Source: an uncultured Bacteroidales bacterium
GTDB lineage: Bacteria; Bacteroidota; Bacteroidia; Bacteroidales; VadinHA17
Assembly (NCBI GenBank): GCA_963831855.1
Contig: CAWHSA010000002.1
Location: 635,656-699,655, forward strand
DNA: 64,000 nucleotides
Direction: 5' to 3'
The notes below the pieces were generated by a model that was given only the letters and a program-made list of their open reading frames with translations, was not told the DNA's origin and searched no databases. Below, one piece after another: positions 47,816 through 61,984 of this stretch (within the stretch, counting starts at the first letter, position 1; every line of letters starts with the position of its first letter). The translations under genes were made by a program, and so were the position numbers.

Positions 47816-48856
47816 TCATACTTTCTTTTCCCATTTCCGGTAGTTAAGATACCCGGTGACTGATAACGCAACGAGTACAATTACCGCAATATAAACAAAT
47901 GATGGCACAGGAACCGGATCACCTGCAGCATATGAATGAAGCCCTGACAGGTAATAATTAACTCCGAAATATGTCATCAATACCGATGAGAACGCAAACA
48001 GTGACAGAAGGTTAAAGGTGAAAACATTCTTCATTCCGGGGATCATCCGGGAGTGAGTGACAAAAGCATAGACAATAATTGTAATAAGTGACCAGGTCTC
48101 CTTCGGATCCCATCCCCAGTACCTGCCCCAGGATTCGTTGGCCCAGACAGCTCCCAGGAATGTTCCTATTGTCAGAAAATAGAGTCCGAGTGTCAGTGTT
48201 TTAAAATTTATCACAGTAAGTTCATCAATAGTATTTGATATCCTTTCCTTATTCCGGTTATTTGAAAGTGAAAGAAGGATCATGGTAATAATTCCAAGGA
48301 TTGCACCCAGGCCCAGAAAACCGTAACTGCCTGTTATAACGGAAACATGGAGAGTCAGCCAGTAGGATTTCAGCACCGGAACAAGGTTTGTAATTTCAGG
48401 ATCCATAAAGCTCAGATGAGCGACCATCAGAGTCATCCCTGCAAGTACAGCTGTTGCTGACAGGGCAAATGCAGATTTACGGCTGAAAATCAGGCCTGCA
48501 AGAAGAGTCACCCATGAAATAAAGATCAGTGATTCATATCCATTGCTAAGCGGCGTGTGCCCTGCAATATACCATCGCATGGCAAGTCCGGCTGTATGAA
48601 AAATAAATCCTGCAATAAGAACCCAGCCAAGGATCCTGACAAAAAAGGAGGTTTCCTTTTTACCTTTAATCACCATTACAATCAGCCCTATTATCATTAT
48701 CAGACCTATTGTGGCATAAAAAGGAAACAGTTTTTCAAAGATCGCCAGCCTGTAATAGAGTATTTCAATCTTCGTCTTTGATTCCGGAGGAAGAGTATAT
48801 TTCGAAAATCGCTGCTGATAAGCGGTTACAGATTCTGATATCTGCCTGGCAGTCAT
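47816..48856 (-). CDS. ccsA: Cytochrome c biogenesis protein CcsA (system II haem lyase subunit)
   Basis: WWD-type haem-handling motif WANESWGRYWGWDPKETWSL and multiple TM helices. The ATG overlaps the ccsB stop (ATGA). Confidence 0.9.
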   Translation of the reverse strand: MTARQISESVTAYQQRFSKYTLPPESKTKIEILYYRLAIFEKLFPFYATIGLIMIIGLIVMVIKGKKETSFFVRILGWVLIAGFIFHTAGLAMRWYIAGHTPLSNGYESLIFISWVTLLAGLIFSRKSAFALSATAVLAGMTLMVAHLSFMDPEITNLVPVLKSYWLTLHVSVITGSYGFLGLGAILGIITMILLSLSNNRNKERISNTIDELTVINFKTLTLGLYFLTIGTFLGAVWANESWGRYWGWDPKETWSLITIIVYAFVTHSRMIPGMKNVFTFNLLSLFAFSSVLMTYFGVNYYLSGLHSYAAGDPVPVPSFVYIAVIVLVALSVTGYLNYRKWEKKV

Positions 48857-50892
48857 TGTATTGTTTGTCTCAGAGTGTTGTATTGAGAAGAGGAATGACC
48901 GTTTCGAGATAGGTGGAATCTTCCTTGCTTATTGCTCTTTTTCATTGCTTCTTCGGCTGGTCCCCAGGTGTCGGTCCCGTCTTTCAGCGGAAATATTTTA
49001 GTAAAATCCCCTTTATAGATCATATACACAATATTCACCCTTTCATCGACTTTCATAACCTCCTTGTCGAACTTATTCCTTTGTGCGGGTGATTTAGAGT
49101 AAGCTGTATTTACTTTCTCAGAGAGTTTGTACGCCCCGTCACCACCTATATTGACCAGGTCCGAAAATGAAGCAAGTTTACCACTGATCCCTACCTCTCT
49201 CTGAAGGTCCTTATTTGAGACTTTTATCAGAGGGACATCTTTCCAGTCGTTGAAATCGAGATATATTCCCAGGAAAACCTGCATAGGAGTGAAACCATTG
49301 AGCTTATTTTCTCCTGATACCTTTCTTAATATATCGCTGCTTAATGTAAAAAGTGGTTTTGTTCTTCCCTTCTGATCCTGAACCAGTACTTTTCCAAACT
49401 CCTCAGAACTCTCCTTTCCCGGAATGAATTTCTGGGCATTTGCGTTATTCAGACCAGAAAGCATAAATATTAAAGCAATTGCTGTTACAATCTTCCGGAG
49501 GGAAGATGACCATGCACCTGCGGTTATACTCCTGAATTGGGAGCTTTTGATTATCAGGGAAAGGATTATGAAGAGGAATAAACACAGGTATCCGGAATAA
49601 GAAACCAGCATTCCGGCCATATCATGATTGACTGAAAGTATTGTTCCTTTTTCATCACCGTCATAAGATGACTGGTAAAAACGGTATCCCCTGTATTTTA
49701 GAATATTGTTCATATAAACGCTGAAAGGCTTCTCGACACCTTTAGGAGTGTCAAGGAGAACGACGTCGCTTTTATAGCCCGACGGACTGTTTGAACCCGG
49801 ATATCTTTCAAGGATAAAATCATTCAGCCTGAGACTGAAGGGAAGTTTAGTGACTTTTGATCCGTAGGTCACCTCAAAGTTCAGTCCGTCAACCGAACAT
49901 GATGCAGCGGCAACAGGTTCAGCATCACTTGTCCAGAGGTAAAAGGATTGTGACCGTGTTGCTCCGAAAATATGAAAAACCAGTGCATTCTGACCCGTTT
50001 CCTGTTCAGCCGGGTCGAATGAAACTGCTTTTACCGTACCGGCGACTGACATTTTCTGGGGAACGATCCTGAGATCATTGACAGTAAGCAACTGCATGGT
50101 TTTCAAAGGAATTCTGATGCCCGGTAATGTTGTATCGGTCTCCTGTGTCATCATGCTCATTCTTCCAATCGGGTATTTTGAGCTGATATAAAAAGCAGCG
50201 GAATCAAGAGTTATTTTCACATCGGTTTCCACCTCAGCATCAAATCCTATGGAAATCCCCTGGACAGTTTTAGATTCTCCTTTTGAAATTGTCACAGTTT
50301 CCCTTCTCATCATATCCCTCGTTACCAGCAGGGATGCTACCGGAACTCCTGACGGATCATCGGTAACTGATTCTCCGGCATTGGGTATTACCCTTGCAAG
50401 CGCCAGCTGATATGTCTTATTGCCGGCATTGATATCTTTTTTGAAATTAGCAGGTGATCCGGAAGATATCGTAAACTTTTTTGAGAATCCGGCGATTGAA
50501 TTCCCTGCTTCATTTTTAACTGTAAGTCCGATATACTTATCTCCGGAGTAACAAATATCCGATACCTGTCCTTCCCGTATATGAATTGTCCCCTCCCATC
50601 CGGTGTATCTTGTGATCCCTGCCCCTGTTATCATCAGGATAAATGCAAGGTGGAAAAGAGCTACAGGAAGTTTGGCCTTCCTGAACATTTTGAAGATAAC
50701 AAGCTGGCCGATCAGATTAGCAACAAGAAGGAGCAGAATCAGCTCAAACCATTTTGTATTATATACCTTAGCATAAGCGGCTCCGGCGCCAAAATCGTTT
50801 TCGATGAAAGTAGCGACCGCCATTGAAACAGCAAAAAATGCAAATAATCCACCCATAAATACCGGGGTGAAAAGGAACTTGAGATACTTCAT
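48853..50892 (-). CDS. ccsB: Cytochrome c biogenesis protein ResB/CcsB (system II)
   Basis: 679 aa with N-terminal TM helices, a large periplasmic domain and a late TM. It sits directly upstream of ccsA and is translationally coupled to it. Confidence 0.8.
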   Translation of the reverse strand: MKYLKFLFTPVFMGGLFAFFAVSMAVATFIENDFGAGAAYAKVYNTKWFELILLLLVANLIGQLVIFKMFRKAKLPVALFHLAFILMITGAGITRYTGWEGTIHIREGQVSDICYSGDKYIGLTVKNEAGNSIAGFSKKFTISSGSPANFKKDINAGNKTYQLALARVIPNAGESVTDDPSGVPVASLLVTRDMMRRETVTISKGESKTVQGISIGFDAEVETDVKITLDSAAFYISSKYPIGRMSMMTQETDTTLPGIRIPLKTMQLLTVNDLRIVPQKMSVAGTVKAVSFDPAEQETGQNALVFHIFGATRSQSFYLWTSDAEPVAAASCSVDGLNFEVTYGSKVTKLPFSLRLNDFILERYPGSNSPSGYKSDVVLLDTPKGVEKPFSVYMNNILKYRGYRFYQSSYDGDEKGTILSVNHDMAGMLVSYSGYLCLFLFIILSLIIKSSQFRSITAGAWSSSLRKIVTAIALIFMLSGLNNANAQKFIPGKESSEEFGKVLVQDQKGRTKPLFTLSSDILRKVSGENKLNGFTPMQVFLGIYLDFNDWKDVPLIKVSNKDLQREVGISGKLASFSDLVNIGGDGAYKLSEKVNTAYSKSPAQRNKFDKEVMKVDERVNIVYMIYKGDFTKIFPLKDGTDTWGPAEEAMKKSNKQGRFHLSRNGHSSSQYNTLRQTIQ

Positions 50893-50927: not shown

Positions 50928-51623
50928 TTAACCTTTTTCTGAAATTTCAGCAAGTTTATCCCTGTCAAGGATTTTTATTCTTGATGATTCAGAGTAAATA
51001 ACGCCTGAATCTTCAAAATCTTTCATGATCCTTACAACGCTCTCTTTTGCCATATTTGTATAATCACCTATTTCCTGGCGGGAAAGTATTAAATCAAATT
51101 CATCTGCACCAAATATTTCATCAGCAAAATAAAGAAACGCTTCGGCCAGTCGTCCGGGCATTTTCTTCTGGGCGAGGTTAACCATCCTGTAATGTGTTCT
51201 CAGCGATTTAGCACTGATATCTATCAGCATGCCTTCTGCAAATTTGCCGTTTACTTTTACCAGATAGCGGAAAACCTCAAAACCGATAAAGCATGCCTGG
51301 ACTGGTGTAAGTGCCGAGGCTGAATAGGTATGCCTGGAATTGACATAAGCACCGGGTCCGATAATCAATCTGCCGGGTTTTGCAATGCTCATTATAAAAT
51401 TCTTTCCGCTAATGCCTTCAATATAAATTTTAGCCATTCCTGAAGAGAGGAACAGTGCGTTTGAGGAAGGGGAACCCTGTTTCATAATCATCTCACCTGC
51501 CTTAAAGCTGGCCTCATACCTGTGTTCATTTACGTACTGTAATTCGCTGTTTGTCAGATATTGAAAATTTTTCCACCTCCTGGTACAGGTTTCGCAGCTA
51601 CCGATTGTATTTTTATCCGGCAT
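50928..51623 (-). CDS. Crp/Fnr-family transcriptional regulator
   Basis: cNMP-binding-like beta-barrel (..FKAGEMIMKQGSP...LFLSSGMAKIY..) and a C-terminal HTH (SRQEIGDYTNMAKESVVRIMKDFE). N-terminal CETC cysteine pair. Confidence 0.85.
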   Translation of the reverse strand: MPDKNTIGSCETCTRRWKNFQYLTNSELQYVNEHRYEASFKAGEMIMKQGSPSSNALFLSSGMAKIYIEGISGKNFIMSIAKPGRLIIGPGAYVNSRHTYSASALTPVQACFIGFEVFRYLVKVNGKFAEGMLIDISAKSLRTHYRMVNLAQKKMPGRLAEAFLYFADEIFGADEFDLILSRQEIGDYTNMAKESVVRIMKDFEDSGVIYSESSRIKILDRDKLAEISEKG

Positions 51624-51833: not shown

Positions 51834-53153
51834 ATGAAACCTGATTTAAAATTATTAACTGCTTTAATTCTTGCCGGCTTCATACTTGCGTCATGTGAAG
51901 GTCCCCGGGGACTAACTGGTGATTCGGGGCAAGACGGAATAGACGCCAATGAGACCTGCAAAGCCTGCCATAATCCAACCGTTGTTGATGCAAAGGCAAC
52001 CCAATATGAGTTATCGAAACACTCTTATGGTGAAGCTGCCTTTGAAGAAGCAGGAAGTACTTCATGTGGTCCATGCCACGAATCTGAGGCATTTAAATAT
52101 GTCAGTAAGAATAATACTCCGGCAACATTTACTCTTGCATCAGGTAAATACTCAAATGATTACATGGTCCCTATAGATAAAGCCTATGGTGAAATTAACT
52201 GTTTCACCTGCCATAGCAGTTTGCATACCACATATGAGGAATCAGATTTTTTCCCGCTTACCACAACTGCGGCAGTTTCAATGACAATGTGGAAAGGCCT
52301 TAAAAGCATAAATATTACCCAGGATGACGGCAAATCAAATTTATGTATCAAATGCCATCAGCCACGTCCGTTGACAACCAGTACAACACTTTCAAATGGT
52401 GATGTTGTTGATTATGCTTCATTAGCCAGCAGTCCCACTACAGTGTTTTACGATAACGCAGCAGGAAATGCCGCACCAAACAAAGTTGTTCCTTCATACA
52501 GATTTCATGTCCATTATGGAACTGTCGGTGCAATTTTTGCCGGTAAAGGTGGGATTGAATTTACCGGATCTCAGACCTATTCAAACTCAGCTCATACAAC
52601 TGTAGCTTCCTGCGGTGATTGCCATATGGCTTCAATGTCAGGCAACGCCGGAGGGCACTCGTTCAAGGCAAAGGGAAATTTTACCAGCTGCAATACGATC
52701 GGATGTCATTCATCGCCTATAACTTCGTCATCCACAACATTCTGGAAGACCACAAGGGATGAGGTAAAATTGTTACTTGACAATCTATCTACAAAAATAA
52801 ATGCAGTAGGTGCGCCAACAGCGAGTATTCTTCATTCAGATTCCAATTCCGAGAGTAACCTCTGGGCAGGTCTTACAACAGGTAACTGGGATGGTTACCT
52901 TGATATTTATGATCCTTCATCAAATCCTGCAGGAGTATGGAAAAATCCTGCACCATCAAACAGCTGGACTGCCGCACAGAAAGCTGCAAACAATCTTCTT
53001 CCCACCTTCCCAAGCTTAAAGAATGGCGTCCTGGGTGCTATGATAAACTTCCAGATGTGCCTGCGGGAATACAGCCTTGGAATTCATAATTACAAGTATA
53101 CTAAGGCATTATTGCAGAACAGCATTGAAGCATTGACTGCGCTTGGGTACTAA
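51834..53153 (+). CDS. Multihaem c-type cytochrome lipoprotein (5 CxxCH + 1 CX4CH)
   Basis: Lipobox LILASC followed by five Gly-X-Y triplets (GPRGLTGDSGQDGID). Haem motifs CKACH, CGPCH, CFTCH, CIKCH, CGDCH and CNTIGCH. Confidence 0.85.
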   Translation: MKPDLKLLTALILAGFILASCEGPRGLTGDSGQDGIDANETCKACHNPTVVDAKATQYELSKHSYGEAAFEEAGSTSCGPCHESEAFKYVSKNNTPATFTLASGKYSNDYMVPIDKAYGEINCFTCHSSLHTTYEESDFFPLTTTAAVSMTMWKGLKSINITQDDGKSNLCIKCHQPRPLTTSTTLSNGDVVDYASLASSPTTVFYDNAAGNAAPNKVVPSYRFHVHYGTVGAIFAGKGGIEFTGSQTYSNSAHTTVASCGDCHMASMSGNAGGHSFKAKGNFTSCNTIGCHSSPITSSSTTFWKTTRDEVKLLLDNLSTKINAVGAPTASILHSDSNSESNLWAGLTTGNWDGYLDIYDPSSNPAGVWKNPAPSNSWTAAQKAANNLLPTFPSLKNGVLGAMINFQMCLREYSLGIHNYKYTKALLQNSIEALTALGY

Positions 53154-53172: not shown

Positions 53173-53310
53173 AAAGAGGATGTCTCAAAAGTCTGTTCTT
53201 TACCCCCAAACCCCCCGAGGGGGGCTTAGTAAATATCTGTAAATCAATAAGTCCCCCCTGGGGGATTTAGGGGTGGTGGATCAGGAAATGCCTTTTGAGA
53301 CATCCTCTTT
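53173..53310. mobile_element. 138-bp MITE-like palindromic element (19-bp perfect terminal inverted repeats)
   Basis: AAAGAGGATGTCTCAAAAG (53173-53191) and CTTTTGAGACATCCTCTTT (53292-53310) flank 100 bp containing homopolymer hairpins CCCCCCGAGGGGGG and TCCCCCCTGGGGGA. No ORF. Confidence 0.45.
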
Positions 53311-53385: not shown

Positions 53386-53781
53386 TTATTTTTTGAGACT
53401 CCTCATATAGTTGATAAGATTCCAGATATCCTCATCGGGGATTTTACCCTCATATTTAGGCATTTCGCCATTCCCGAATTTTGTTTCATAGAAATGTTCG
53501 CCATCGGACTGATTCTGGAATTCGGCTTTTGAAAAGTCACCCGGGAATTCCTTCAGTGCCCTTGCCTTAACACCATCACCAAGCCCTGCTTTGCCGTGGC
53601 ATGATGCGCAGTTCTTCGTCCAGAGTGCTGCCCCTGCCTTTGTACTTGCGTCGCTCAAAGCAACAGGATTTTTCTTTGTTTTATATTCAGCAGGGACATT
53701 AAAGGGTTTTTTCTGTGCAACCACTGCAACGCTCAGGACTACCATCACAGAGCTGACCAAAAAGAGTTTCATTGTTTTCAT
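53386..53781 (-). CDS. Secreted monohaem class-I c-type cytochrome
   Basis: Signal peptide MKTMKLFLVSSVMVVLSVAVVA|QKK, haem motif CASCHG, distal Met region (GEMPKY). Start set at MKTMK; the track ORF starts at 53814. Confidence 0.85.
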   Translation of the reverse strand: MKTMKLFLVSSVMVVLSVAVVAQKKPFNVPAEYKTKKNPVALSDASTKAGAALWTKNCASCHGKAGLGDGVKARALKEFPGDFSKAEFQNQSDGEHFYETKFGNGEMPKYEGKIPDEDIWNLINYMRSLKK

Positions 53782-53830
53782 AATAAATATGGTTTTAGTA
53801 AGACATAAATGCAATTATCGTGCAAATCTT

Positions 53831-54745
53831 TCAATTGAGTAAGTTTTCTTTTTTTGGTTTTTTAGGCTTTGCATCAATTTTTATGAGTATCAGGCTTATA
53901 ATAGCAAAAAGGTAATGTCCCCATACTCCTGCAAGGAGAATAGAGAGAGTGACAATCATCCAGGTTGGCGGCGTCTTGGTCCAGAGCGCCCTGTGCGTTT
54001 TGGGAACTGAGTAAGAAGTAGGAACACCCCATTTCCGGTTAACACTTTTTTCAACAGTTCCATAAGTCGGATTATCTTCAAAACGTGCAATTATTTTAAG
54101 GTTCCCTTCATTATCACCCGGCAGGTCCGACGGGAACTCAACCGAAACGGTACCATTATCATCAAGGGTGACTTCGGCAACCGGAAGAAGGCTGAACATT
54201 CTTGGAACATAAATCATTACTGATTCACCTGCAGCAGGAATATTCCTCTTTCCCATCAAGGCATATGCTTTCAGGGTGATAGTTTTAACACTGTCCATCT
54301 CCTCGAGAGTCATTTCAAGCTGAACATCCTTAACCTGTAATTCGGAAGTTGAGGCTTCAATTGTATCATTTCCTTTGTATTCAGAAACAAAAAACAATTG
54401 CCCTTCACTGTTAACAGGCAGTTTACTGATATTGTTTACCGGAATGTTTGCGATTCCTTTTTCATCGGTACGGACAGAAGCCAGGAGATCTTTCTTTACT
54501 CCATCAGAATAGAAATTTATTTCCATCCCCGGTAGAGGTAATTCCATTCTGTTCTCCGAATAGGTAAGAGTAGCTTTCAAAGAAGACTGATTATCGTTAT
54601 CTTTAAAGTACTGGAGCTGAAAATAAGGACTTATTTTACCGGTTTCCTGAGAAAATGAGGAAACAGACAGAGGCGATGCAAGGAACAGGAGGAAAAGTAA
54701 TTTAATAATTTTTTTTATCCGGAATCTCATAGTCTTACCTGTCAT
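53831..54745 (-). CDS. Secreted beta-sandwich-repeat protein with C-terminal TM anchor (unknown function)
   Basis: Signal peptide ..SVSSFS|QE, then two CarboxypepD_reg/Ig-like-looking segments (..DEKGIANIPV.., ..DDNGTVSVEFP..) and a TM helix WMIVTLSILLAGVWGHYLFAIISLILI. The start overlaps the NrfD-like stop by 4 nt. Confidence 0.55.
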   Translation of the reverse strand: MTGKTMRFRIKKIIKLLFLLFLASPLSVSSFSQETGKISPYFQLQYFKDNDNQSSLKATLTYSENRMELPLPGMEINFYSDGVKKDLLASVRTDEKGIANIPVNNISKLPVNSEGQLFFVSEYKGNDTIEASTSELQVKDVQLEMTLEEMDSVKTITLKAYALMGKRNIPAAGESVMIYVPRMFSLLPVAEVTLDDNGTVSVEFPSDLPGDNEGNLKIIARFEDNPTYGTVEKSVNRKWGVPTSYSVPKTHRALWTKTPPTWMIVTLSILLAGVWGHYLFAIISLILIKIDAKPKKPKKENLLN

Positions 54746-56049
54746 TTTAGAATTTCAACGTTATCCTTTTCATGCATTTCCGATATAGAAATAATCGGTG
54801 CAATTTTTGAGACAAGCATAAAAAGCATAGCAAATATTGATACACCTGCCATAGTAAGGGCCCACTCAATCCATGTCGGAGTATATTTTATCCAGTCGGG
54901 CCTGATATCCTGAATCGGAAGAAATGGAGTCTCAAGTGTTGGAATAACAATTATATAGCGGTTTACCCACAGGGCCAGAAGTGCAATAATTGCAGCAATT
55001 GTTATGTTTGGAATAGTCCTGAATTTAGGAACAGCAATTATTATTCCCGGCAAAAGGATCCCTATATAATTAGCAAAAATAAAGAGCCCGTAGTAATCAC
55101 TGAAAAGCTTATCAATAAGAATGGAGTCCATCTTTATTGATCCGTACCATTTTGTCAGGTAATCGCTGAAGGTGAAATATCCATAGAAAGCTGCTATTAC
55201 TGTCAGAAGTACGCCAACATTTACAAAATGGCGTTTGGTGATATACTCTTCAAGATGGTAGACCTTCCGGAATATCCACATCAGAATTATAAGTAGTCCT
55301 GTACCTGAAAAAACTGCTGCAATAACAAAGTACGGACCAAAAATCGTTGAATGCCATCCTGGCTGGAGTGTAACTCCAAAAATCCATGCCAGCACAGAAT
55401 AAACGATAATTGCAATTGCGATAATCATTGATGCCATAATCGTTCTGGCATTTGACAACAGCTTATGCTGCTTTTCCGTTCCGGTATAACCGAGCGACAG
55501 GATCTTATAAAGTTTCTTTTTCCAGGGCGCTACATTTAGTGCGGCATAATCACGGAGTATTGCAAAATCTTCAATGAATGAAAGATAAAGGTAAATAAAA
55601 CATCCTACGAGGTCAGTAGATATTGCAATTACGTCCCAGGTAATAGGTGATTGAATTCTTGGATGAATGAACAGAAAATAAAGTCTGTCAAGCCTTCCGA
55701 TGCAAAAGAAAATAAAAAATGGTCCGATTACCAGGGAGATGACTGTTATAAGTTCTGCCATTCTTATTACCGGCTTTCTCCAGCCCGTATGGAACAGATG
55801 CAACACCCCGGAAATAAGTGCTCCCGAATAACTCAGTCCCATAAAGAAAATGAAGTTTACGATATAAAAACCCCAAACGACATTATCTCGCATCCCCGTT
55901 ACAATATGACCTTTATCGATCTGGAGAATTAATCCGTATACTCCCAGTACAAAAAAAGCAAAAAAGATAAAGAAAGTTACCCACCATTTAGTGGATGTCT
56001 TCTCCAGCTCCGGAGTCAGGTCCTTTATAATTTTATCATCAATCTGCAT
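54742..56049 (-). CDS. NrfD/PsrC-family polytopic membrane quinol-interacting subunit
   Basis: 435 aa with about 10 TM helices. Its position immediately after a Tat-dependent 4-cluster ferredoxin fits the NrfCD/PsrBC/ActBC arrangement. Confidence 0.75.
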   Translation of the reverse strand: MQIDDKIIKDLTPELEKTSTKWWVTFFIFFAFFVLGVYGLILQIDKGHIVTGMRDNVVWGFYIVNFIFFMGLSYSGALISGVLHLFHTGWRKPVIRMAELITVISLVIGPFFIFFCIGRLDRLYFLFIHPRIQSPITWDVIAISTDLVGCFIYLYLSFIEDFAILRDYAALNVAPWKKKLYKILSLGYTGTEKQHKLLSNARTIMASMIIAIAIIVYSVLAWIFGVTLQPGWHSTIFGPYFVIAAVFSGTGLLIILMWIFRKVYHLEEYITKRHFVNVGVLLTVIAAFYGYFTFSDYLTKWYGSIKMDSILIDKLFSDYYGLFIFANYIGILLPGIIIAVPKFRTIPNITIAAIIALLALWVNRYIIVIPTLETPFLPIQDIRPDWIKYTPTWIEWALTMAGVSIFAMLFMLVSKIAPIISISEMHEKDNVEILK

Positions 56050-56074
56050 TTCCCCTGGATTTTATCAGTTCACA

Positions 56075-57040
56075 TCATCGTGGACCCGTATTATTATATC
56101 TCTTTTTAATGGATTCGTCATTATCTTCCAGTCCGCTTTCAACAGGAAACTGCCTTTGGACGGGAGGAAGGTAGTATACACTTGGAAGTGTTCCAAGCTC
56201 TTCCCTGTATCTGTATCCGGCCCTGTCAGTCATCAGTTTGCTGAACCTGACTGTTTCATCACCGTTTGTTATTGTATCTTCAAGAATATCACCAAAATAC
56301 AGCACGCCCATTGGACAAGCGGTTACGCATCTGGGCAATTCATTATTCCTGAGCTTATCGGCACAAAAAACACATTTGCCCACTGTTCCTTCAACCTGAG
56401 GAATATTAGTTTCGGGATCATAAACATGGCCGGGAGGTACTTTGACTTCCGGGTCTTTCCAGTTGAAGACCCTTGCAGAATAGGGACAGCCGGTCATACA
56501 AAACTTGCAACCGATACATCTCTGGTTATCGACCAGTACAATACCATCATCTCTTTTGAAAGTTGCTCCTACCGGGCAAACGCTGACGCACATCGGCTTG
56601 TCGCAATGGAAGCATGGACGAGGGAACCAGTATTTAGCTGTGTCTTTGTCATCCTGAAGGAGGAATAATTTCATCCATTCCTGGTCTTTTGGAAGAAGGT
56701 GACCTTCCTGGCAAGCATCGATACATTTCCGTGCATTTTTACATTTTGCCAGGTCGATAACCATTACAAACTTCCGGCCGGGGATTCCTTTTTTTGCCTC
56801 TGCCTTAAGCTCAGCAACACTTTTCTTTCCAGGCAGAATATCGTCCCTGTCAACTTCAACCAGCTTGCCTTCCGGGGAAAGCAGCTTCACCGTCTTACCT
56901 GATTTTGATTTTCCGGAATTACCATTAGTTACAGTACCAGAGAGTCCGGCAAGGGTAACACCTCCAATCCCGCCACCAACCCTCCTGATGAAATTACGCC
57001 TGGAAGATTTCCCCTGATTATCCTGATTTTTCTCTTTCAT
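56075..57040 (-). CDS. Tat-exported 4x[4Fe-4S] ferredoxin-type subunit (NrfC/DmsB/PsrB family)
   Basis: Twin-arginine signal SRRNFIRRVGGG. Cys clusters CKNARKCIDAC, CFHCDKPMCVSVCP, CIGCKFCMTGCP and CVFCADK...CVTACP. Confidence 0.88.
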   Translation of the reverse strand: MKEKNQDNQGKSSRRNFIRRVGGGIGGVTLAGLSGTVTNGNSGKSKSGKTVKLLSPEGKLVEVDRDDILPGKKSVAELKAEAKKGIPGRKFVMVIDLAKCKNARKCIDACQEGHLLPKDQEWMKLFLLQDDKDTAKYWFPRPCFHCDKPMCVSVCPVGATFKRDDGIVLVDNQRCIGCKFCMTGCPYSARVFNWKDPEVKVPPGHVYDPETNIPQVEGTVGKCVFCADKLRNNELPRCVTACPMGVLYFGDILEDTITNGDETVRFSKLMTDRAGYRYREELGTLPSVYYLPPVQRQFPVESGLEDNDESIKKRYNNTGPR

Positions 57041-57053
57041 TCCTTTCCTTCAA

Positions 57054-57671
57054 TTAATGATCTTCTGATTCATGGTAACCAGTTATGATACCCCTGAAAA
57101 GAGAAGAAGCTCTTGATCCCAGTGTGCACGTATAGATATGGATTACTAAAAAGACCGAAACAAAGAATCCGAGTGTTATGTGCAATATATCTGTCAGTAT
57201 CAGCCCGCTTACTCCGAATATCCTGTCAATTATGGTTTCGGGGAACATCAGTCCAAGTCCTGAAATAATAAGTAAAGGAAGGGCTACATACATTGCAAGG
57301 ACATATGAAAATTTCTGAAGCGGATTGAATTTCCGTTCCAATGTTACAGGAAACGGGTGTTTTTCTCCCCTGAACATGCCCCAGGCATAATATCTGAATT
57401 GCTTCCCAAGATCTGATATGAAATCTTTTTTACTGATCCTGTAATATTTACCATTGCCGGTAAAAAGATTCGCAACTACAAAAACTATATAATTAATTGT
57501 AATAATGGTCGCTGCTATATTATGCCACTTGACAGCTCTTGAAAATCCCACGAGAAGTGTATATTCCTGCTTATCGGTATACTGCATGCTGATCCCGGTA
57601 ATAATAAGAACTATTACCAGCAAAGCATTTAACAAATGCCACAATCTGACCCAAACCGGATATAGATACAT
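57054..57671 (-). CDS. Dihaem b-type cytochrome membrane subunit (HyaC/FdnI/PhsC-like cytochrome b561 family)
   Basis: 205 aa with 4-5 TM helices and conserved His residues in helices (RLWHLLNA, VKWHNIAA, DILHITLG, VIHIYTC). Confidence 0.7.
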   Translation of the reverse strand: MYLYPVWVRLWHLLNALLVIVLIITGISMQYTDKQEYTLLVGFSRAVKWHNIAATIITINYIVFVVANLFTGNGKYYRISKKDFISDLGKQFRYYAWGMFRGEKHPFPVTLERKFNPLQKFSYVLAMYVALPLLIISGLGLMFPETIIDRIFGVSGLILTDILHITLGFFVSVFLVIHIYTCTLGSRASSLFRGIITGYHESEDH

Positions 57672-57683
57672 TTTGCCAAAAAT

Positions 57684-58661
57684 TTATTTCCTGATCACCC
57701 TTATAAATATATGTATGCCAATAATCAGAACCAGCAATACAAAAATTCCCATGCTGATATAATTAAGATACTCATTGCGGTTCGCCCCGATAACAAAAGA
57801 CTCATTAAGAATAATGCTGTTCAAGAATCCGTTCCTGCGCTGCTCTTTTGACCTGAATTTGTACAGCGATGACATCAGCAATGAGTTCTGTGAATGGCAT
57901 TCGTTGCATTTTTTGACCGCCTTCTCCTTTGGATTGATCAGGTGTGAAACCAGGATGTCATTATTGACTTCCGAGTGACATTCAATGCATCTGACATTTT
58001 TAAAATGTGCCGCCTGATTCGGCAGCCATTCATGCTTCTCAAGAATATTGATCTCATCACGATCAGACAGAAGCTTGAAATGATTGTAGTTGGAATGACA
58101 ATTAAGACAAATATTGTTGTCGTATAAGATTGTCTCCTTGAGGTTGGTACTGTTCCTGATACTGATCCGGTAATCATGTGGTCCATGACATTTCCAGCAT
58201 GAAAATCCGACATCTTCCAGCTTGAAATGTATGCTCTTCTGATATTCAGCCTCAATTTCCTCAAACTTGAACCTGGCAAATTTTTCATCACCGCCATGAC
58301 AATCAATGCAGTTATACTGCTGTTCCATCCTTAGCTCTCCGGCATGAGGAAATTTTACATATTCCTCAGAGTGACAATCTGTACAGCTGAAGCTTTTGTG
58401 ATTGGACCGGTAAAAATCGTTCCTGATGACTATCTGTTCCGGAAACATCAATGCTCTAACCTTTTTACCCTGGCTCTCATTCGTGTATTCGTAGGTGTTT
58501 TGTCCATGGCATTTAAAGCACCTTTCATTAGCTTCTGTATACGGAGAAATGAAGTGTACAGTATCCGCCTGGCCCGGGTCTTGAGCATCCAGATTGTAAA
58601 AAGCGGTCTCAGCAGAAATCAGTGCAGACAGGATTAGAAACGGGCGGTTCAGAAATTTCAT
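57684..58661 (-). CDS. Seven-haem c-type cytochrome with C-terminal membrane anchor
   Basis: Signal peptide. Seven CxxCH motifs (CFKCH, CTDCH, CIDCH, CWKCH, CLNCH, CIECH, CNECH). C-terminal TM helix ISMGIFVLLVLIIGIHIFI. Confidence 0.88.
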   Translation of the reverse strand: MKFLNRPFLILSALISAETAFYNLDAQDPGQADTVHFISPYTEANERCFKCHGQNTYEYTNESQGKKVRALMFPEQIVIRNDFYRSNHKSFSCTDCHSEEYVKFPHAGELRMEQQYNCIDCHGGDEKFARFKFEEIEAEYQKSIHFKLEDVGFSCWKCHGPHDYRISIRNSTNLKETILYDNNICLNCHSNYNHFKLLSDRDEINILEKHEWLPNQAAHFKNVRCIECHSEVNNDILVSHLINPKEKAVKKCNECHSQNSLLMSSLYKFRSKEQRRNGFLNSIILNESFVIGANRNEYLNYISMGIFVLLVLIIGIHIFIRVIRK

Positions 58662-58678
58662 TCTTTCTTTTCCTGTTA

Positions 58679-59542
58679 CTAAAATCTTACAGTAATATTA
58701 AATCCAACAAGGAAATCACCTTTAGTAAAGTCATTTGTATTGAAAAGCAGATTTGTCTGATTAATTATCTGCGAATAATTGGCAACAAATACCTGGAACG
58801 TATGGGTTGCAGTTCCTATTTCCCACCCAAGAGATACATTTGGCATTGGCTGAACAGCCAGATTCTGCCTTGTAAGGAGCTGGTCATATTCAAGGATCAG
58901 GGAGTGATTGCCAAAAAGGTTTGCGCGGGCACCCGCAGAAATAGCGAAATTCAGGTTTTCATACCCTGATGAATCCGAATATACGGGAACAGAATTGAAA
59001 TATGCAACCGAAGGAGCCACCTGGAGTGATAACTTCTCAGTGATCTTGCGTGCGAGAATAAGCTGGTTAAAATAAGATAACCTGTGAATTTCACTGAATG
59101 ATTCTGACGGTCCGAAAGCGCTTGCAGGTCTCAGGTCAGCAACCATATTGCCATAATAGGAAAGTGAAACCGGCATGCTGTTGTTCTCTGTCTGCTGAAG
59201 TATCAATACTTTCCACTGAATATCCTGGAGCTTATAGTCTTTAGTGGTACCGATACCGAGCATTATCCTGTCAGTTATCCCGTAATTGAGACCAAGCCTT
59301 GTATTTGCAGCCCCATAAATTCCGAAAAGATTATGGTAGTTCTGGATAAGGCTGAACCTGTGATGGATCTCAAGTTCAAGTCCCCCCTTATATGGTGTTG
59401 CAACAGTATGATTATCAATAAGTATAGAGGTTCCAAATGTAAACCTTACCGGTTTTGAGCTTTTTTCTGTCTGGGTCTCTTCCTGCGAAAAAGCCGGTAC
59501 TAAAAAGAATGCTGTCAATAATAGAAGAAATGCCTTTTTCAT
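58679..59542 (-). CDS. Outer-membrane beta-barrel protein (family unassigned)
   Basis: Signal peptide ..LVPAFS|QEE, alternating hydrophobic beta-strand pattern throughout, and the C-terminal ..FLVGFNITVRF with a terminal Phe typical of OMPs. Confidence 0.7.
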   Translation of the reverse strand: MKKAFLLLLTAFFLVPAFSQEETQTEKSSKPVRFTFGTSILIDNHTVATPYKGGLELEIHHRFSLIQNYHNLFGIYGAANTRLGLNYGITDRIMLGIGTTKDYKLQDIQWKVLILQQTENNSMPVSLSYYGNMVADLRPASAFGPSESFSEIHRLSYFNQLILARKITEKLSLQVAPSVAYFNSVPVYSDSSGYENLNFAISAGARANLFGNHSLILEYDQLLTRQNLAVQPMPNVSLGWEIGTATHTFQVFVANYSQIINQTNLLFNTNDFTKGDFLVGFNITVRF

Positions 59543-59572
59543 TGTATCTGGTTTTTTAGTGATTATCCTGAA

Positions 59573-59953
59573 TTAGTTATTTTTTGCACCCTGTTTTATC
59601 CAGGTAAGCACTTTAAGCTTATCGGTATCAGTTGACCTGGAAATATGGCTCCCTGAAGTCATCTTAACATAAAGTAAGCTCGATTCGGCCGCGTTGGTAT
59701 TTAAATAACTTCCGCCTGTAAGAGAAGCATATGATTTTCCGGCACGGAGATCAGGTTGTTGAGATCCTCCGTGACATCCGCTGCAATTTGTGGTAAAAAT
59801 TGGCTGGATATCTGTTGCAAAAAATAAAATTGTATTTTGATCGATAACAGGCGGGGTATACTGATATTTCTCACAGGATGACAATACAGCAATGGAAGCA
59901 GGCAGAATAACTGCATAAATAAAGTTGCATAGTTTTTTTCTTTTCAGGCTCAT
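59573..59953 (-). CDS. Small haem-binding lipoprotein (PSCyt-like CxxCH domain)
   Basis: Lipobox AVLSSC. IQPIFTTNCSGCHGGSQQPDLRAG resembles the planctomycete-type cytochrome c domain. First gene of the eight-gene operon. Confidence 0.65.
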   Translation of the reverse strand: MSLKRKKLCNFIYAVILPASIAVLSSCEKYQYTPPVIDQNTILFFATDIQPIFTTNCSGCHGGSQQPDLRAGKSYASLTGGSYLNTNAAESSLLYVKMTSGSHISRSTDTDKLKVLTWIKQGAKNN

Positions 59954-60060
59954 TTCTATTAGTTTTAAATAATGCCCAAATATACCGGATTAAGCGATGG
60001 ATTTCTTTCGTAACCAGCCCAAAAACACAATGTTATACATGCTTTTTAGCATATCAATTA

Positions 60061-60074
60061 TTGATTTTTGTCAC
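60061..60074. promoter_or_regulatory. Candidate Crp/Fnr-type box TTGATTTTTGTCAC upstream of the cytochrome operon
   Basis: Shares TTGAT-N4-RTCAC(C) with the box at 51700-51713. It lies 108 bp upstream of the first ATG (59953, minus strand) and overlaps the palindrome ATCAATTATTGAT (60053-60065). Confidence 0.3.
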
Positions 60075-60171
60075 CCCTTCAAATGATATTTGTTAAACAG
60101 CATCCTGTATCAACGCCTATTTATATTCCGGTCCGGATAATTATTCAGAATGAGACTATATCATACACAGG

Positions 60172-61950: not shown

Positions 61951-61984
61951 TATTATTAACTATTTGGTTTACATTATTATAAAA

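What the first reader, a model, noticed from the sequence alone, without database searches (positions are those of the whole stretch)
53386..59953. Eight-gene multihaem cytochrome / cytochrome b / NrfCD-type operon with an embedded outer-membrane barrel and no catalytic subunit
Eight minus-strand ORFs are packed with gaps of -4 to 30 bp. In order they are:
- a CSGCH lipoprotein;
- a 287-aa OM beta-barrel;
- a seven-CxxCH cytochrome with a C-terminal anchor;
- a four-His cytochrome b;
- a Tat-exported four-cluster NrfC/DmsB-type protein;
- an NrfD/PsrC-type membrane protein;
- an anchored beta-sandwich protein of unknown function;
- a CASCH monohaem cytochrome.

No molybdopterin, sirohaem or other catalytic subunit is present. 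The haem c + cytochrome b + FeS + NrfD core recalls the Hmc/Nhc/Ohc/Qrc transmembrane redox complexes of sulfate reducers. It is related to alternative complex III but differs from it: there is no ActB1-like domain, only one NrfD-type subunit, and an extra cytochrome b.

Adding an OM barrel and lipoprotein/secreted cytochromes suggests an electron route from the quinone pool across the periplasm to the outer membrane or an external acceptor. One caveat applies: a 287-aa barrel is too small to sheathe a cytochrome in the MtrB manner, so it may instead be a substrate channel or an anchor. I do not recognise this gene order as a described system.
Basis: partly seen in the sequence, partly recalled or inferred. 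Interest (0 to 1): 0.8.

Follow-up and report, generated by a model that had tools for sequence, protein, structure and literature searches.

The report
Bacteroidales cytochrome operon reaching the outer membrane
This is a real eight-gene operon, conserved in uncultured anaerobic Bacteroidales, that joins two inner-membrane quinol-oxidising modules to small cytochromes and an uncharacterised outer-membrane barrel, so it probably carries respiratory electrons to or across the outer membrane in bacteria usually regarded as fermenters.

Summary
All eight minus-strand genes exist, with the stated motifs and gaps of -4 to 30 bp.

The order A-H recurs in 40 of 56 fully covered loci from about 80 Bacteroidales MAG species. 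No molybdopterin or other catalytic subunit appears in the window or in any related locus.

The interpretation needs revision. The 'core' is not one Hmc/Qrc-like complex. It is made of separable modules:
- **C+D** are a seven-haem cytochrome with an anchor helix plus a PhsC-like dihaem b. They match the Geobacter CbcBA quinol oxidase in every architectural feature tested. The CbcBA paper already noted such homologues in Bacteroidetes.
- **E+F+G** are a 3+4+4+4-Cys FeS protein, an NrfD whose best solved relative is ActC of alternative complex III, and a new double-Ig anchored subunit.
- **A+B(+H)** are a haem lipoprotein, the DUF5777 barrel and a class-I cytochrome c.

The new finding concerns A+B:
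- An A-type haem lipoprotein accompanies DUF5777 in nine further, distant gene clusters, eight of them outside this operon type.
- One DUF5777 protein is naturally fused to an H-like cytochrome c, which is the Cyc2 'fused cytochrome-porin' architecture.
- Several distant clusters sit beside T9SS-secreted redox proteins.

Best reading: a quinol-to-outer-membrane electron route. Acceptor and direction are unknown.

The parts
59977..59984 (-). Candidate Bacteroidota-type -7 promoter box, TATATTTG (fits TAnnTTTG), 23 nt upstream of the ATG of gene A. The 218-bp intergenic region also holds the inverted repeat ATCAAT-A-ATTGAT.
   Evidence: Read directly from the sequence. The consensus comes from general knowledge of Bacteroidota promoters. 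Function was not tested.
59573..59953 (-). A: a 126-aa monohaem lipoprotein. It has the lipobox LSSC|EK, one CSGCH, a PSCyt1-like motif DIQPIF..C..CH, and a C-terminal W..GA.NN motif. It is the partner of the DUF5777 barrel.
   Evidence: the lipobox Cys, C57 and C60 are invariant and H61 is 98% conserved in 62 orthologues. The family HMM finds CxxCH-bearing relatives in 8 of 9 distant DUF5777 clusters, most of them directly adjacent to the barrel gene.
58679..59542 (-). B: a 287-aa outer-membrane beta-barrel of family DUF5777, with a signal peptide.
   Evidence: Pfam PF19089 at 5e-69. The AF2 model shows 13 strands at pLDDT 66. Foldseek finds only generic OM barrels. The family has 1420 clusters at 50% identity.
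57684..58661 (-). C: a 325-aa CbcA-like cytochrome. It has seven CxxCH, seven invariant distal His (bis-His haems), and a C-terminal TM helix carrying invariant His317.
   Evidence: The features match the description of CbcA.
57054..57671 (-). D: a 205-aa, four-helix dihaem cytochrome b (PF01292, PhsC-like). It is CbcB-like and is the menaquinol-oxidising partner of C.
   Evidence: His12, His50, His164 and His178 are 97-100% conserved.
56075..57040 (-). E: a 321-aa Tat-exported FeS protein with 15 invariant Cys grouped 3+4+4+4. It is DsrO/ActB2/PsrB-like.
54742..56049 (-). F: a 435-aa, ten-helix NrfD-family quinol-interacting subunit, closest to ActC of alternative complex III.
   Evidence: 6f0k_C 1.9e-57, 6btm_C 3.3e-52; ActC D169 is kept, H139 becomes Cys116, D253 becomes Ile223.
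53831..54745 (-). G: a 299-304-aa protein with no named family. It has a signal peptide, two Ig-like beta-sandwich domains, and a highly conserved C-terminal TM helix (W275, H277 and Y278 at least 95% conserved in 71 orthologues). It is an obligate companion of E-F.
   Evidence: E-F-G stay together in 75 of 80 loci and are duplicated as a unit in L073.
53386..53814 (-). H: a secreted class-I monohaem cytochrome c of about 131-142 aa (CASCH, invariant Met118). It is the likely periplasmic link to A+B.
   Evidence: Relatives place an H-like cytochrome with the barrel in three ways:
- Fused to DUF5777 in P0454 (38% identity, 4e-24).
- Directly upstream of DUF5777 in L095.
- Directly downstream of B in L074, L075, L078 and L080.
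53208..53265 (-). Two G+C hairpins (TCCCCCAGGGGGGA and GCCCCCCTCGGGGGG followed by TTT) lie between the convergent genes H and I. They are a likely terminator region.
   Evidence: This is a pattern match only.
51834..53153 (+). I: a 439-aa lipoprotein cytochrome with five CxxCH plus one Cx4CH. Four collagen-like G-X-Y triplets follow the lipid-anchor Cys. It is a conserved neighbour and a candidate distal electron carrier.
   Evidence: It is present in 53 of 80 loci. Its function is inferred.
50928..51623 (-). J: a Crp/Fnr-family regulator, a conserved neighbour and the candidate regulator of the cluster.
   Evidence: It is present in 59 of 80 loci. TTGAT/ATCAA-type half-sites occur in the J-I spacer, but they are not statistically enriched.
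47816..50892 (-). K and L: ResB (679 aa) and CcsA (346 aa), the system II cytochrome c haem-attachment machinery. They are a conserved neighbour. In most related loci they form a single fused protein of about 1025 aa.

Best explanation
The operon encodes a modular respiratory electron route from the menaquinol pool to the outer membrane.

**Inner-membrane entry points.** Two independent modules oxidise quinol.
1. D, a four-helix dihaem cytochrome b, sits with C, a seven bis-His haem cytochrome held by a C-terminal helix bearing an invariant His. This is the CbcBA type of quinol:cytochrome c oxidoreductase, known from Geobacter extracellular respiration.
2. F, an ActC-like NrfD subunit with no cofactors, holds the quinol site and possibly a proton path. 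It sits with E, a Tat-exported protein with one 3-Cys and three 4-Cys cluster motifs, and G, a double-Ig protein whose conserved TM helix packs against F. This resembles a stripped-down ACIII/NrfCD core.

**Periplasm.** Both modules reduce periplasmic cytochromes, chiefly the class-I monohaem H.

**Outer membrane.** H hands electrons to an outer-membrane module made of the haem lipoprotein A and the small DUF5777 barrel B. This works like a split version of the Cyc2 fused cytochrome-porin. A single haem at or in the barrel exchanges electrons with a soluble species that enters the pore, or with a surface cytochrome such as the collagen-stalked lipoprotein I.

**Support functions.** Haem attachment is provided by the adjacent ResB/CcsA. 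Control probably comes from the adjacent Crp/Fnr regulator.

**What is shown:** gene content, cofactor ligands, modularity, the A-B pairing and the H-DUF5777 fusion.

**What is inferred:** the physical contacts, the outward direction of flow and the identity of the acceptor.
For: **Conservation.** A-H in this order occurs in 40 of 56 fully covered loci from Bacteroidales MAG species, with NrfD identity of 62-92%.

**C and D.**
- Seven CxxCH, seven distal His and the helix His317 are invariant in C.
- Four His are invariant in D.
- These match the published CbcBA description: seven haems, a C-terminal anchor helix bearing a His, and a 'thiosulfate-reductase-like' four-helix b. That paper also states that homologues exist in Bacteroidetes.

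**E, F and G.**
- The best solved relatives of F are ActC chains.
- E has 15 invariant Cys and a conserved Tat motif.
- E-F-G travel and duplicate as a unit.

**A, B and H.**
- An A-family member with a CxxCH or Cx4-5CH motif accompanies DUF5777 in nine distant gene clusters: L081, L083 (two), L085, L088, L090, L092, L094 and L095. In L094 it is recognised by motif only. Eight of the nine lack C-G entirely.
- P0454, and a second copy on an independent contig, is an H-like cytochrome c fused to DUF5777.
- H sits directly next to B in the most divergent operons and in L095.
- Distant DUF5777/A clusters lie beside T9SS-tailed proteins: a cupredoxin in L083, a Reeler-domain protein with CALCH in L081, and a DUF3836-like protein with no redox motif in L092.
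- In L083 a second A-type lipoprotein follows a Porin_O_P gene. Keffer et al. model the Cyc2 barrel on that porin family.

**Host.** The same window carries cytochrome bd, a flavodiiron protein and HydF, which points to an anaerobe.
Against:
- The barrel model has low confidence (pLDDT 66) and shows only 13 strands. One or two haems cannot span an outer membrane by themselves.
- The fusion is rare: 1 of the 150 best DUF5777 cluster representatives.
- H is a His/Met class-I cytochrome. That type usually feeds periplasmic oxidases or reductases.
- The lipoprotein export signal of A (C-E-K-Y) is not the acidic run typical of surface lipoproteins, so A may face the periplasm.
- Half of the distant DUF5777 clusters carry YceI, a lipid/isoprenoid-binding protein, which hints at a different chemistry.
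- Direct sequence comparison with Geobacter CbcA and CbcB could not be made.
- D keeps all four b-haem His ligands, whereas the CbcBA paper reports three in CbcB.
- The regulator is Crp/Fnr, not the sigma-54 BccR of Geobacter.
Confidence: 0.5

Rival explanations
1. This is a purely periplasmic chain. C-D and E-F-G are quinol:cytochrome c oxidoreductases acting as ACIII substitutes. They reduce H, and H then feeds a periplasmic terminal enzyme encoded elsewhere, such as a cbb3 oxidase, NosZ, a cytochrome c peroxidase or a nitrite reductase. A+B is an accessory, either a substrate or product channel or a lipoprotein anchor, and not an electron conduit.
For: - F is closest to ActC.
- H belongs to the Cytochrome_CBB3 / class-I family, with an invariant Met ligand.
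- A Crp/Fnr regulator is the conserved neighbour.
- The barrel is small.
- A lacks an obvious surface-export signal.
Against: - No such terminal enzyme lies within 10 kb in any of 80 loci or in the 64-kb window, which shows only cytochrome bd.
- This reading does not explain why A and B stay paired with each other and with c-type cytochromes in unrelated clusters, or why an H-like domain is fused to the barrel.
- CbcBA in Geobacter serves extracellular acceptors.
Confidence: 0.25
2. The route runs inwards. A+B(+H) is a Cyc2-like oxidase for soluble Fe(II) or another external donor. The ACIII-like and CbcBA-like modules push those electrons uphill into the menaquinone pool or pass them to an oxidant.
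For: - The architecture of a monohaem cytochrome plus a small barrel, including one true fusion, is that of Cyc2, a demonstrated Fe(II) oxidase.
- A shows a P-x-F element before CxxCH and a conserved P-x-L after it, loosely like the Cyc2 cytochrome domain.
- MAG names point to sites such as Lac Pavin, an aquifer and a fen.
Against: - The host looks like a fermentative anaerobe, with [FeFe]-hydrogenase maturase and only a bd oxidase in the window.
- The Cyc2 signature AxPxFAR[Q/K][T/Y] is absent from A.
- In about half of the loci, ETF, acyl-CoA dehydrogenase and a membrane FeS-CCG protein lie just upstream. These feed electrons into the quinone pool.
Confidence: 0.12
3. C, D, E and F(+G) form one Hmc/Nhc/Qrc-type transmembrane redox complex.
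For: - The genes are adjacent and tightly spaced.
- The cofactor inventory of haem c + cytochrome b + FeS + NrfD is that of Hmc-type complexes.
- E and F score against DsrO/DsrP and QrcC/QrcD models, although below their cut-offs.
Against: - C-D and E-F-G occur without each other and on opposite strands in relatives.
- No cytoplasmic HdrD/HmcF-type subunit is in the operon.
- C-D alone is a functional unit in Geobacter.
Confidence: 0.08
4. A+B (often together with YceI elsewhere) handles a lipophilic redox molecule at the outer membrane rather than transferring electrons directly to external acceptors. Candidates are an isoprenoid quinone or a shuttle.
For: YceI sits between the A-like gene and DUF5777, or next to DUF5777, in L083, L085, L088, L094 and the P0373 contig.
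Against: - There is no YceI gene in this operon or in its 80 relatives.
- The ligand of these YceI proteins is unknown.
Confidence: 0.05

Closest known systems
Geobacter sulfurreducens CbcBA (GSU0593-0594, part of the Cbc5 cluster), an inner-membrane quinol:cytochrome c oxidoreductase needed for extracellular acceptors below about -0.21 V
   Same: - The cytochrome has seven haems and a C-terminal anchor helix containing a His.
- The gene that follows encodes a four-helix, 'thiosulfate-reductase-like' b-type cytochrome.
- The gene order is c then b.
- Homologues in Bacteroidetes are reported by the authors.
   Different: - D keeps four His ligands, whereas three are reported for CbcB.
- The regulator is Crp/Fnr, not the sigma-54 BccR.
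- There is no dodecahaem CbcC.
- The pair is embedded between an outer-membrane module and an NrfCD-type module.
- Sequence identity to the Geobacter proteins was not measured here.
Alternative complex III (ActABCDEF; PDB 6F0K, 6BTM)
   Same: - F is most similar to ActC over its whole length (1.9e-57).
- E aligns to the ActB2 FeS domain and has a 3-Cys first motif.
- A monohaem cytochrome c is encoded alongside.
   Different: - There is no ActB1 molybdopterin-like domain.
- There is no second NrfD (ActF), no pentahaem ActA and no ActD.
- The ActC quinol residues H139 and D253 are replaced by Cys and Ile.
- G has no ACIII counterpart.
- H is not a lipoprotein.
Cyc2, the fused monohaem cytochrome-porin Fe(II) oxidase of neutrophilic and acidophilic iron oxidisers
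   Same: - It combines a single-haem c-type cytochrome with a small outer-membrane barrel.
- One DUF5777 protein (P0454) has exactly this fused layout.
   Different: - In this operon the cytochromes (A, H) and the barrel (B) are separate genes.
- The barrel is DUF5777, modelled with 13 strands, not a 16-strand OprO/P-like porin.
- The Cyc2 motif AxPxFAR[Q/K][T/Y] is absent.
- The fused cytochrome in P0454 is a class-I domain of about 100 aa.
NrfCD / SirCD / Geobacter CbcTU (Cbc4), quinol dehydrogenases built from an FeS protein and an NrfD subunit
   Same: - A Tat-exported poly-FeS protein plus a cofactor-less NrfD membrane subunit hands electrons to periplasmic cytochromes c.
- A separate small-cytochrome/FeS/NrfD trio of this kind is inserted in L023 and replaces E-F-G in L092.
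   Different: - F belongs to the ten-helix ActC-like branch.
- An extra obligate subunit, G, is present.
- No dedicated multihaem partner is encoded next to E.
MtrCAB / PioAB / Geobacter porin-cytochrome complexes
   Same: The concept is the same: periplasmic and lipoprotein cytochromes are encoded next to an outer-membrane barrel, downstream of inner-membrane quinol oxidases.
   Different: - Those barrels have 20-26 strands and enclose an 8-10 haem cytochrome.
- This barrel is 287 aa and its partners carry one haem each.

Membership tests
CbcBA-type quinol:cytochrome c oxidoreductase | A c-type subunit with seven CxxCH haem sites | tested here: met
   There are seven CxxCH in C. Seven are present in 58 of 65 orthologues, and all seven plus seven distal His are invariant in the 60 near-full-length orthologues aligned.
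CbcBA-type quinol:cytochrome c oxidoreductase | A C-terminal transmembrane anchor on the c subunit that carries a conserved His | tested here: met
   The TM segment spans residues 302-320 and His317 is invariant. The feature is described for CbcA.
CbcBA-type quinol:cytochrome c oxidoreductase | An adjacent four-helix dihaem b subunit of the PhsC/HydC type | tested here: met
   PF01292 at 7e-25. NF011582 (PhsC) scores 171 bits, below its cut-off of 204. There are four TM helices and four conserved His.
CbcBA-type quinol:cytochrome c oxidoreductase | Sequence homology to GSU0593 and GSU0594 | not testable with these tools
The only support is the authors' statement that Bacteroidetes have homologues.
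CbcBA-type quinol:cytochrome c oxidoreductase | A divergent sigma-54 regulator, BccR | tested here: not met
   The conserved regulator is of the Crp/Fnr family.
Alternative complex III | An ActC-type ten-helix NrfD subunit | tested here: met
   The best PDB hits are ActC chains, 1.9e-57 to 1.9e-43, covering residues 16-425.
Alternative complex III | ActB with an N-terminal molybdopterin-like B1 domain fused to the FeS B2 domain | tested here: not met
   E is 321 aa and aligns only to residues of about 780-960 of the ActB chains. There is no Mo-family Pfam hit.
Alternative complex III | A second NrfD subunit (ActF), the pentahaem ActA and ActD | tested here: not met
   There is one NrfD gene in the operon, no five-haem N-terminally anchored cytochrome, and G is unrelated.
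Alternative complex III | The ActC quinol-site residues His139, Asp169 and Asp253 (R. marinus numbering) | tested here: not met
   The alignment gives H139 to Cys116 (invariant), D169 to Asp139 (kept) and D253 to Ile223.
Cyc2 fused cytochrome-porin | A single polypeptide of at least 365 aa with an N-terminal CxxCH domain and a porin | tested here: not met
   A (126 aa), H (142 aa) and B (287 aa) are separate genes. The layout is met only by the relative P0454, which is 407 aa.
Cyc2 fused cytochrome-porin | The AxPxFAR[Q/K][T/Y] motif upstream of CxxCH | tested here: not met
   A reads DIQPIFTTN-CSGCH and H reads ALWTKN-CASCH.
Cyc2 fused cytochrome-porin | A 16-strand OprO/P-like barrel | tested here: inconclusive
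   The AF2 model of B shows 13 strands at pLDDT 66 with a disordered stretch at 257-273. Foldseek gives only weak generic barrel matches. No profile comparison with Cyc2 was possible.
MtrAB / porin-cytochrome complexes | A 20-26-strand barrel enclosing a periplasmic cytochrome of eight or more haems | tested here: not met
   B is 287 aa and about 13 strands. The adjacent cytochromes A and H have one haem each.
Complex iron-sulfur molybdoenzymes (Psr/Phs/Ttr/Dms) and NrfABCD | A catalytic subunit (Mo-bisPGD or NrfA) encoded with the FeS and NrfD subunits | tested here: not met
   No such gene is in the window region or among the recurrent gene families of 80 loci.
Hmc/Tmc/Dsr-type transmembrane complexes | A cytoplasmic HdrD/DsrK-like CCG subunit encoded in the same operon | tested here: not met
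   There is none among A-H. The FeS-CCG protein at 62189-63940 belongs to a separate ETF/acyl-CoA dehydrogenase cluster and is absent from the more distant loci.

The most novel reading that the evidence does not exclude
The A-family haem lipoprotein and the DUF5777 barrel, with a class-I cytochrome c as docking partner, form a previously unrecognised minimal outer-membrane electron conduit that is widespread in Bacteroidota. It is a split analogue of Cyc2 that wires periplasmic cytochromes to soluble external redox species or to surface and T9SS-secreted redox proteins. In these Bacteroidales it is coupled to CbcBA-like and ACIII-core-like quinol oxidases. If so, abundant 'fermentative' sediment and soil Bacteroidales would have a respiratory outlet to iron, humics or partner cells.
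Probability: 0.35. Interest if true: 0.85.

Novelty: new variant of a known kind. Interest (0 to 1): 0.7.

Why it matters
Bacteroidales of anoxic soils, sediments, aquifers and digesters are usually modelled as polymer-degrading fermenters.

This operon is conserved in about 80 species-level genomes. Highly similar copies appear in thousands of metagenome proteins. If it gives these bacteria a quinol-to-outer-membrane electron outlet, several things would change:
- Carbon and iron or humic cycling budgets in these habitats.
- The list of marker genes used to call extracellular electron transfer in metagenomes.
- The known ways for electrons to cross an outer membrane, which would gain a fourth architecture (small barrel plus monohaem lipoprotein) beside Mtr-type, Geobacter Pcc-type and Cyc2.

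It also gives testable functions to two families without any:
- DUF5777 (1420 clusters at 50% identity) together with its haem-lipoprotein partner.
- The Ig-like subunit G of an ACIII-like core.

Tried and rejected
- **DUF5777 literature.** A full-text search for 'DUF5777' found no paper.
- **Descriptions of the whole cluster.** Searches gave only the CbcBA remark about Bacteroidetes.
- **Metagenome scans for distant DUF5777 loci.** All failed. The two alignments were too diverse to seed a search, and the single-protein scan with P0454 found nothing.
- **G against solved structures.** The sequence search found nothing, and Foldseek gave only generic Ig-domain proteins such as factor XIII and intimin. 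No function could be transferred.
- **B against solved structures.** Foldseek gave no match better than E=1e-3.
- **I against solved structures.** Nothing significant was found.
- **PDB 28pb_A.** A profile of the C family hit this 278-aa chain, named only 'Cytochrome c', at 1.4e-6. I could not establish what that entry is, so I did not use it.
- **FNR-box search.** TTGAT-N4-ATCAA with one mismatch gave 5 hits against 6.4 expected. The half-sites seen upstream of A and between J and I are only a lead.
- **Sigma-70 promoter and terminator scans.** Counts were at chance level.
- **A hidden catalytic gene.** I considered that one sits in the insertions between G and H in some relatives. In L023 the insert is a second cytochrome/FeS/NrfD module plus a second H copy.
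- **ETF/ACAD/FeS-CCG genes as part of the system.** I rejected strict membership, because they are missing from the more divergent loci.

Full report

Yes. The ORF list returns eight consecutive minus-strand ORFs at exactly the coordinates given.

| Gene | Coordinates |
|---|---|
| A | 59573-59953 |
| B | 58679-59542 |
| C | 57684-58661 |
| D | 57054-57671 |
| E | 56075-57040 |
| F | 54742-56049 |
| G | 53831-54745 |
| H | 53386-53814 |

The gaps between them are 30, 17, 12, 13, 25, -4 and 16 bp.

A motif and hydropathy script confirms the described features:
- A has a lipobox (LSSC) and one CSGCH.
- B has a signal peptide.
- C has seven CxxCH and a C-terminal hydrophobic helix.
- D has four helices.
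- E has a twin-arginine motif.
- F has ten hydrophobic segments.
- G has a signal peptide and a C-terminal helix.
- H has one CASCH.

Pfam and NCBIfam give these assignments:
- B is DUF5777 (5e-69).
- D is Ni_hydr_CYTB and PhsC-like.
- E is Fer4_11 and DsrO-like.
- F is NrfD and weakly DsrP/QrcD-like.
- H is class-I cytochrome c.
- G has only sub-threshold Ig-domain hits.

The operon looks bounded. A Bacteroidota-type -7 box, TATATTTG, lies 23 nt before the ATG of A. G+C hairpins lie after H. Transcription was not tested.

The flanks place the organism among anaerobic Bacteroidota. They hold SusC/SusD, GH39, cytochrome bd, a flavodiiron protein and HydF.

**2. Conservation**

The NrfD protein has 4405 database relatives at E<=1e-10. 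The best 120 are 86-92% identical, and all that carry names come from Bacteroidales or Bacteroidota MAGs.

A scan of one genome per species returned 80 loci, all from Bacteroidales-type MAGs, with NrfD identity of 62-92%. Record names point to soils, lakes, an aquifer, a fen and permafrost.

Synteny by tblastn gave the following. Of 56 loci with enough flank:
- 35 have A-H contiguous in this order.
- 5 have the same order with an insertion.
- The rest are informative variants, described in section 3.

Conserved neighbours are:
- A divergently oriented 5-6-haem lipoprotein cytochrome (I, 53 loci).
- A Crp/Fnr regulator (J, 59 loci).
- ResB/CcsA system II haem attachment (K and L, 42-44 loci).

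In the closer relatives, EtfAB, an acyl-CoA dehydrogenase and a membrane FeS-CCG protein lie upstream.

Cofactor ligands are invariant:
- Seven CxxCH plus seven distal His in C.
- Four His in D.
- 15 Cys in E.
- CxxCH plus Met118 in H.
- The lipobox Cys, C57 and C60 in A, with H61 98% conserved.

No molybdopterin, sirohaem, NrfA-type or oxidase gene appears among the recurrent families of these loci.

**3. The 'core' is modular, not one complex**

The variants separate the parts:
- L073 and L077 have A, B, E-F-G and H but no C or D. In L073, E-F-G and H are each present twice.
- L054 and L057 put E-F-G on one strand and the H-D-C-B(-A) block on the other.
- L023 and its relatives insert a second, opposite-strand tetrahaem-c/FeS/NrfD trio between two copies of H.
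- L092 keeps I, A, B, C and D but replaces E-F-G with a small cytochrome/FeS/NrfD trio.
- In the most divergent group (L074, L075, L078, L080), H moves to directly follow B.

The units of inheritance are therefore [A-B], [C-D], [E-F-G] and H.

**4. C-D**

The properties of C and D are these:
- C has seven bis-His haems.
- C has a C-terminal anchor helix with invariant His317.
- The gene after C encodes a four-helix PhsC-like dihaem b.

This is the published description of Geobacter CbcA/CbcB. That description gives seven haems, a C-terminal TM domain supplying a His, and a b subunit usually annotated 'thiosulfate reductase-like'. CbcBA is required for extracellular acceptors near the thermodynamic limit.

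The same paper states that homologous cbcBA clusters occur in Bacteroidetes (Prolixibacter, Marinilabiliales, Labilibaculum). It proposes them as a marker for extracellular electron transfer.

I could not fetch GSU0593 or GSU0594, so orthology rests on architecture plus that statement.

The differences are:
- D keeps all four FdnI-type His ligands.
- The regulator is Crp/Fnr rather than BccR.
- There is no CbcC.

**5. E-F-G**

The best solved relatives of F are the ActC subunits of alternative complex III (6f0k_C 1.9e-57, 6btm_C 3.3e-52). The match to ActF is far weaker.

Of the three ActC quinol-site residues named in the NrfD review, only Asp169 is kept. His139 is an invariant Cys and Asp253 is Ile.

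E aligns to PsrB/NrfC and to the B2 part of ActB. Its 3+4+4+4 Cys pattern suggests one [3Fe-4S] plus three [4Fe-4S]. This is inferred from what is known of ActB and QrcC.

G has 830 relatives, none carrying a functional name. It has no solved sequence relative. Its confident model (pLDDT 87) shows two Ig-like sandwiches followed by a long helix, with only generic Ig matches.

The TM helix of G is the most conserved part of the protein. W262, M263, W275, H277 and Y278 are among its best-conserved residues (at least 95%). That argues for tight packing in the membrane, most simply against F.

E-F-G is best described as a reduced ACIII/NrfCD-type quinol dehydrogenase with a new accessory subunit.

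**6. A-B(-H): the new part**

DUF5777 has no literature in the searched library.

A profile search of 1.8 billion cluster representatives found 1420 DUF5777 clusters. Nearly all are about 290 aa and single-domain.

One representative, P0454 (407 aa), is different. A second 407-aa member lies on an independent contig. P0454 has an N-terminal class-I cytochrome c that is 38% identical to H (4e-24), fused to DUF5777 (2e-61). It is the only CxxCH-bearing representative among the best 150.

I then looked at the gene neighbourhoods of ten distant DUF5777 representatives. I scanned them with HMMs built from the operon's families.

In eight of the nine DUF5777 gene clusters with usable flanks, the HMM finds an A-family protein with a CxxCH or Cx4-5CH site. 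In most of them it lies directly beside the barrel gene. HMM E-values run from 1e-31 to 1e-7. These clusters are L081, L083 (two), L085, L088, L090, L092 and L095.

In the ninth, L094, the upstream 135-aa protein resembles A by motif only. It has a Cx5CH site and a C-terminal ...MWLDQG, and it gave no HMM hit at 1e-3. A short tenth contig, carrying P0373, shows only YceI beside the barrel.

The A-family members share a lipoprotein signal, F..I.PI...C..CH and a C-terminal W..GA.NN. Eight of the nine clusters contain none of C-G.

An H-like cytochrome is fused in L081 and adjacent in L095.

Companions elsewhere include:
- YceI, in five clusters.
- A T9SS-tailed cupredoxin, in L083.
- A T9SS-tailed Reeler-domain protein with a CALCH site, in L081.
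- A T9SS-tailed DUF3836-like protein, in L092.

In L083 a further A-type lipoprotein follows a Porin_O_P gene. Keffer et al. model the Cyc2 barrel on that porin family.

It is one half of a conserved haem-lipoprotein/barrel pair that keeps company with redox proteins.

**7. Mechanism proposed**

Shown:
- Two quinol-interacting inner-membrane modules.
- Secreted monohaem cytochromes.
- A conserved haem-lipoprotein/barrel pair.
- A natural cytochrome-barrel fusion.
- Adjacent haem-attachment genes and a regulator.

Inferred:
- Menaquinol is oxidised by C-D and by E-F-G.
- H is the periplasmic carrier.
- A-B takes electrons to the outer membrane.

Because only one or two haems are available at the outer membrane, the partner must be one of two things:
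- A soluble species entering the pore, the logic proposed for Cyc2.
- A surface protein, such as the lipoprotein cytochrome I.

The outward direction is favoured by three points:
- The role of CbcBA in Geobacter.
- The anaerobic host.
- In closer relatives, the upstream ETF/ACAD/FeS-CCG genes, which load the quinone pool.

I put this reading at about 0.5. The rivals are:

| Rival | Confidence |
|---|---|
| Purely periplasmic chain feeding an enzyme encoded elsewhere | 0.25 |
| Inward, Cyc2-like Fe(II) oxidation | 0.12 |
| A lipid or quinone-handling role hinted at by YceI | 0.05 |

**8. Comparison with known systems and novelty**

- The system works like a porin-cytochrome route fed by Cbc-type quinol oxidases.
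- It is not a member of ACIII. It has no ActB1, ActF, ActA or ActD, and two of three quinol residues differ.
- It is not a Mo-enzyme or Nrf system, because there is no catalytic subunit.
- It is not Mtr/Pcc, because the barrel is too small and the cytochromes are monohaem.
- It is not Cyc2. The genes are separate, the signature motif is absent, and the strand count is unresolved.
- C-D meets every architectural criterion for CbcBA that could be tested, except the regulator.

I file the operon as a new variant of a known kind. The A-B pair and subunit G are uncharacterised families. If A-B proves to be a conduit, it would be a new architecture.

**9. Limits**

- Nothing here shows transcription, localisation, haem content, interaction or phenotype.
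- The barrel model is weak.
- The fusion is rare.
- The sample of distant DUF5777 contexts is small: nine gene clusters.
- The source organism is known only as an uncultured Bacteroidales.

Noticed in passing
window 51834-53153 (+), residues 21-35; orthologues in L001-L080: The lipoprotein multihaem cytochrome I starts, right after its lipid-anchor Cys, with collagen-like G-X-Y triplets (CE-GPR-GLT-GDS-GQD here). Of 54 family members (this window's protein plus 53 orthologues), 46 have 3-12 such triplets. This suggests a trimeric stalk holding a 5-6-haem cytochrome away from the membrane.
   Followed up: partly
window 60172-63940 (-), and upstream in about 30-40 of the related loci: Directly upstream of the operon lie an acyl-CoA dehydrogenase and a 583-aa membrane FeS protein with two CCG domains. 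In relatives they are preceded by EtfA/EtfB. This looks like an ETF:menaquinone input module placed next to the quinol-oxidising operon. It is absent from the more divergent loci.
   Followed up: partly
window 47816-50892 (-): ResB (679 aa) and CcsA (346 aa) are separate ORFs here, overlapping by 4 bp. In most related loci they form one fused ORF of about 1025 aa. This is either a genuine split or a frameshift in this assembly.
   Followed up: no
L083 100-2026; L083 5516-6136; L081 5457-6245: Three features in distant DUF5777 loci:
- A Porin_O_P gene is followed by a 230-aa lipoprotein ending in an A-type haem domain.
- A T9SS-tailed cupredoxin is present.
- A T9SS-tailed Reeler-domain protein with a CALCH site is present.

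Together they suggest that Bacteroidota place redox proteins on the cell surface through the T9SS, next to cytochrome/barrel pairs.
   Followed up: partly
L085 5430-5981, L088 5384-5935, L083 6330-6923, L094 2272-2844, P0373 contig: YceI-family (lipid/isoprenoid-binding) genes sit immediately before DUF5777 in five distant clusters. In four of them an A-like gene lies in the same cluster (L094 by motif only). In the fifth, the short P0373 contig, no A-like gene is visible. No YceI gene occurs in the operon studied here.
   Followed up: no
L085 5029-5403; L088 3830-4474; L094 1779-2186: Some A-family members have widened haem motifs (C-ALSG-CH, C-ALAD-CH, C-ATSSA-CH) instead of CxxCH.
   Followed up: no
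window 59954-60171 and 51624-51833: Palindromes built from TTGAT/ATCAA half-sites occur upstream of A (ATCAAT-A-ATTGAT) and between J and I (TTGATATATATCAC, TTGATCTATCAA). They may be sites for the adjacent Crp/Fnr regulator. A window-wide count is no higher than chance.
   Followed up: partly
window 19362-22091 (-), 24364-25614 (-), 7394-8623 (+): Cytochrome bd oxidase (CydA, with the adjacent 376-aa ORF presumed to be CydB), a flavodiiron protein and the [FeFe]-hydrogenase maturase HydF lie in the same window. This fits an oxygen-tolerant fermentative anaerobe with a quinone pool.
   Followed up: partly
L023 12672-15479 (-); L092 8029-10434 (+): A second kind of quinol module, made of a tetrahaem cytochrome c, a Tat FeS protein and an NrfD of about 400-430 aa, with no G, is inserted into or substituted in some versions of the cluster.
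   Followed up: partly
PDB entry 28pb chain A: A 278-aa chain named only 'Cytochrome c' is the best solved match to a profile of the C family (1.4e-6, covering haem sites 2-6). It could be a CbcA-like structure, but I could not identify it.
   Followed up: no
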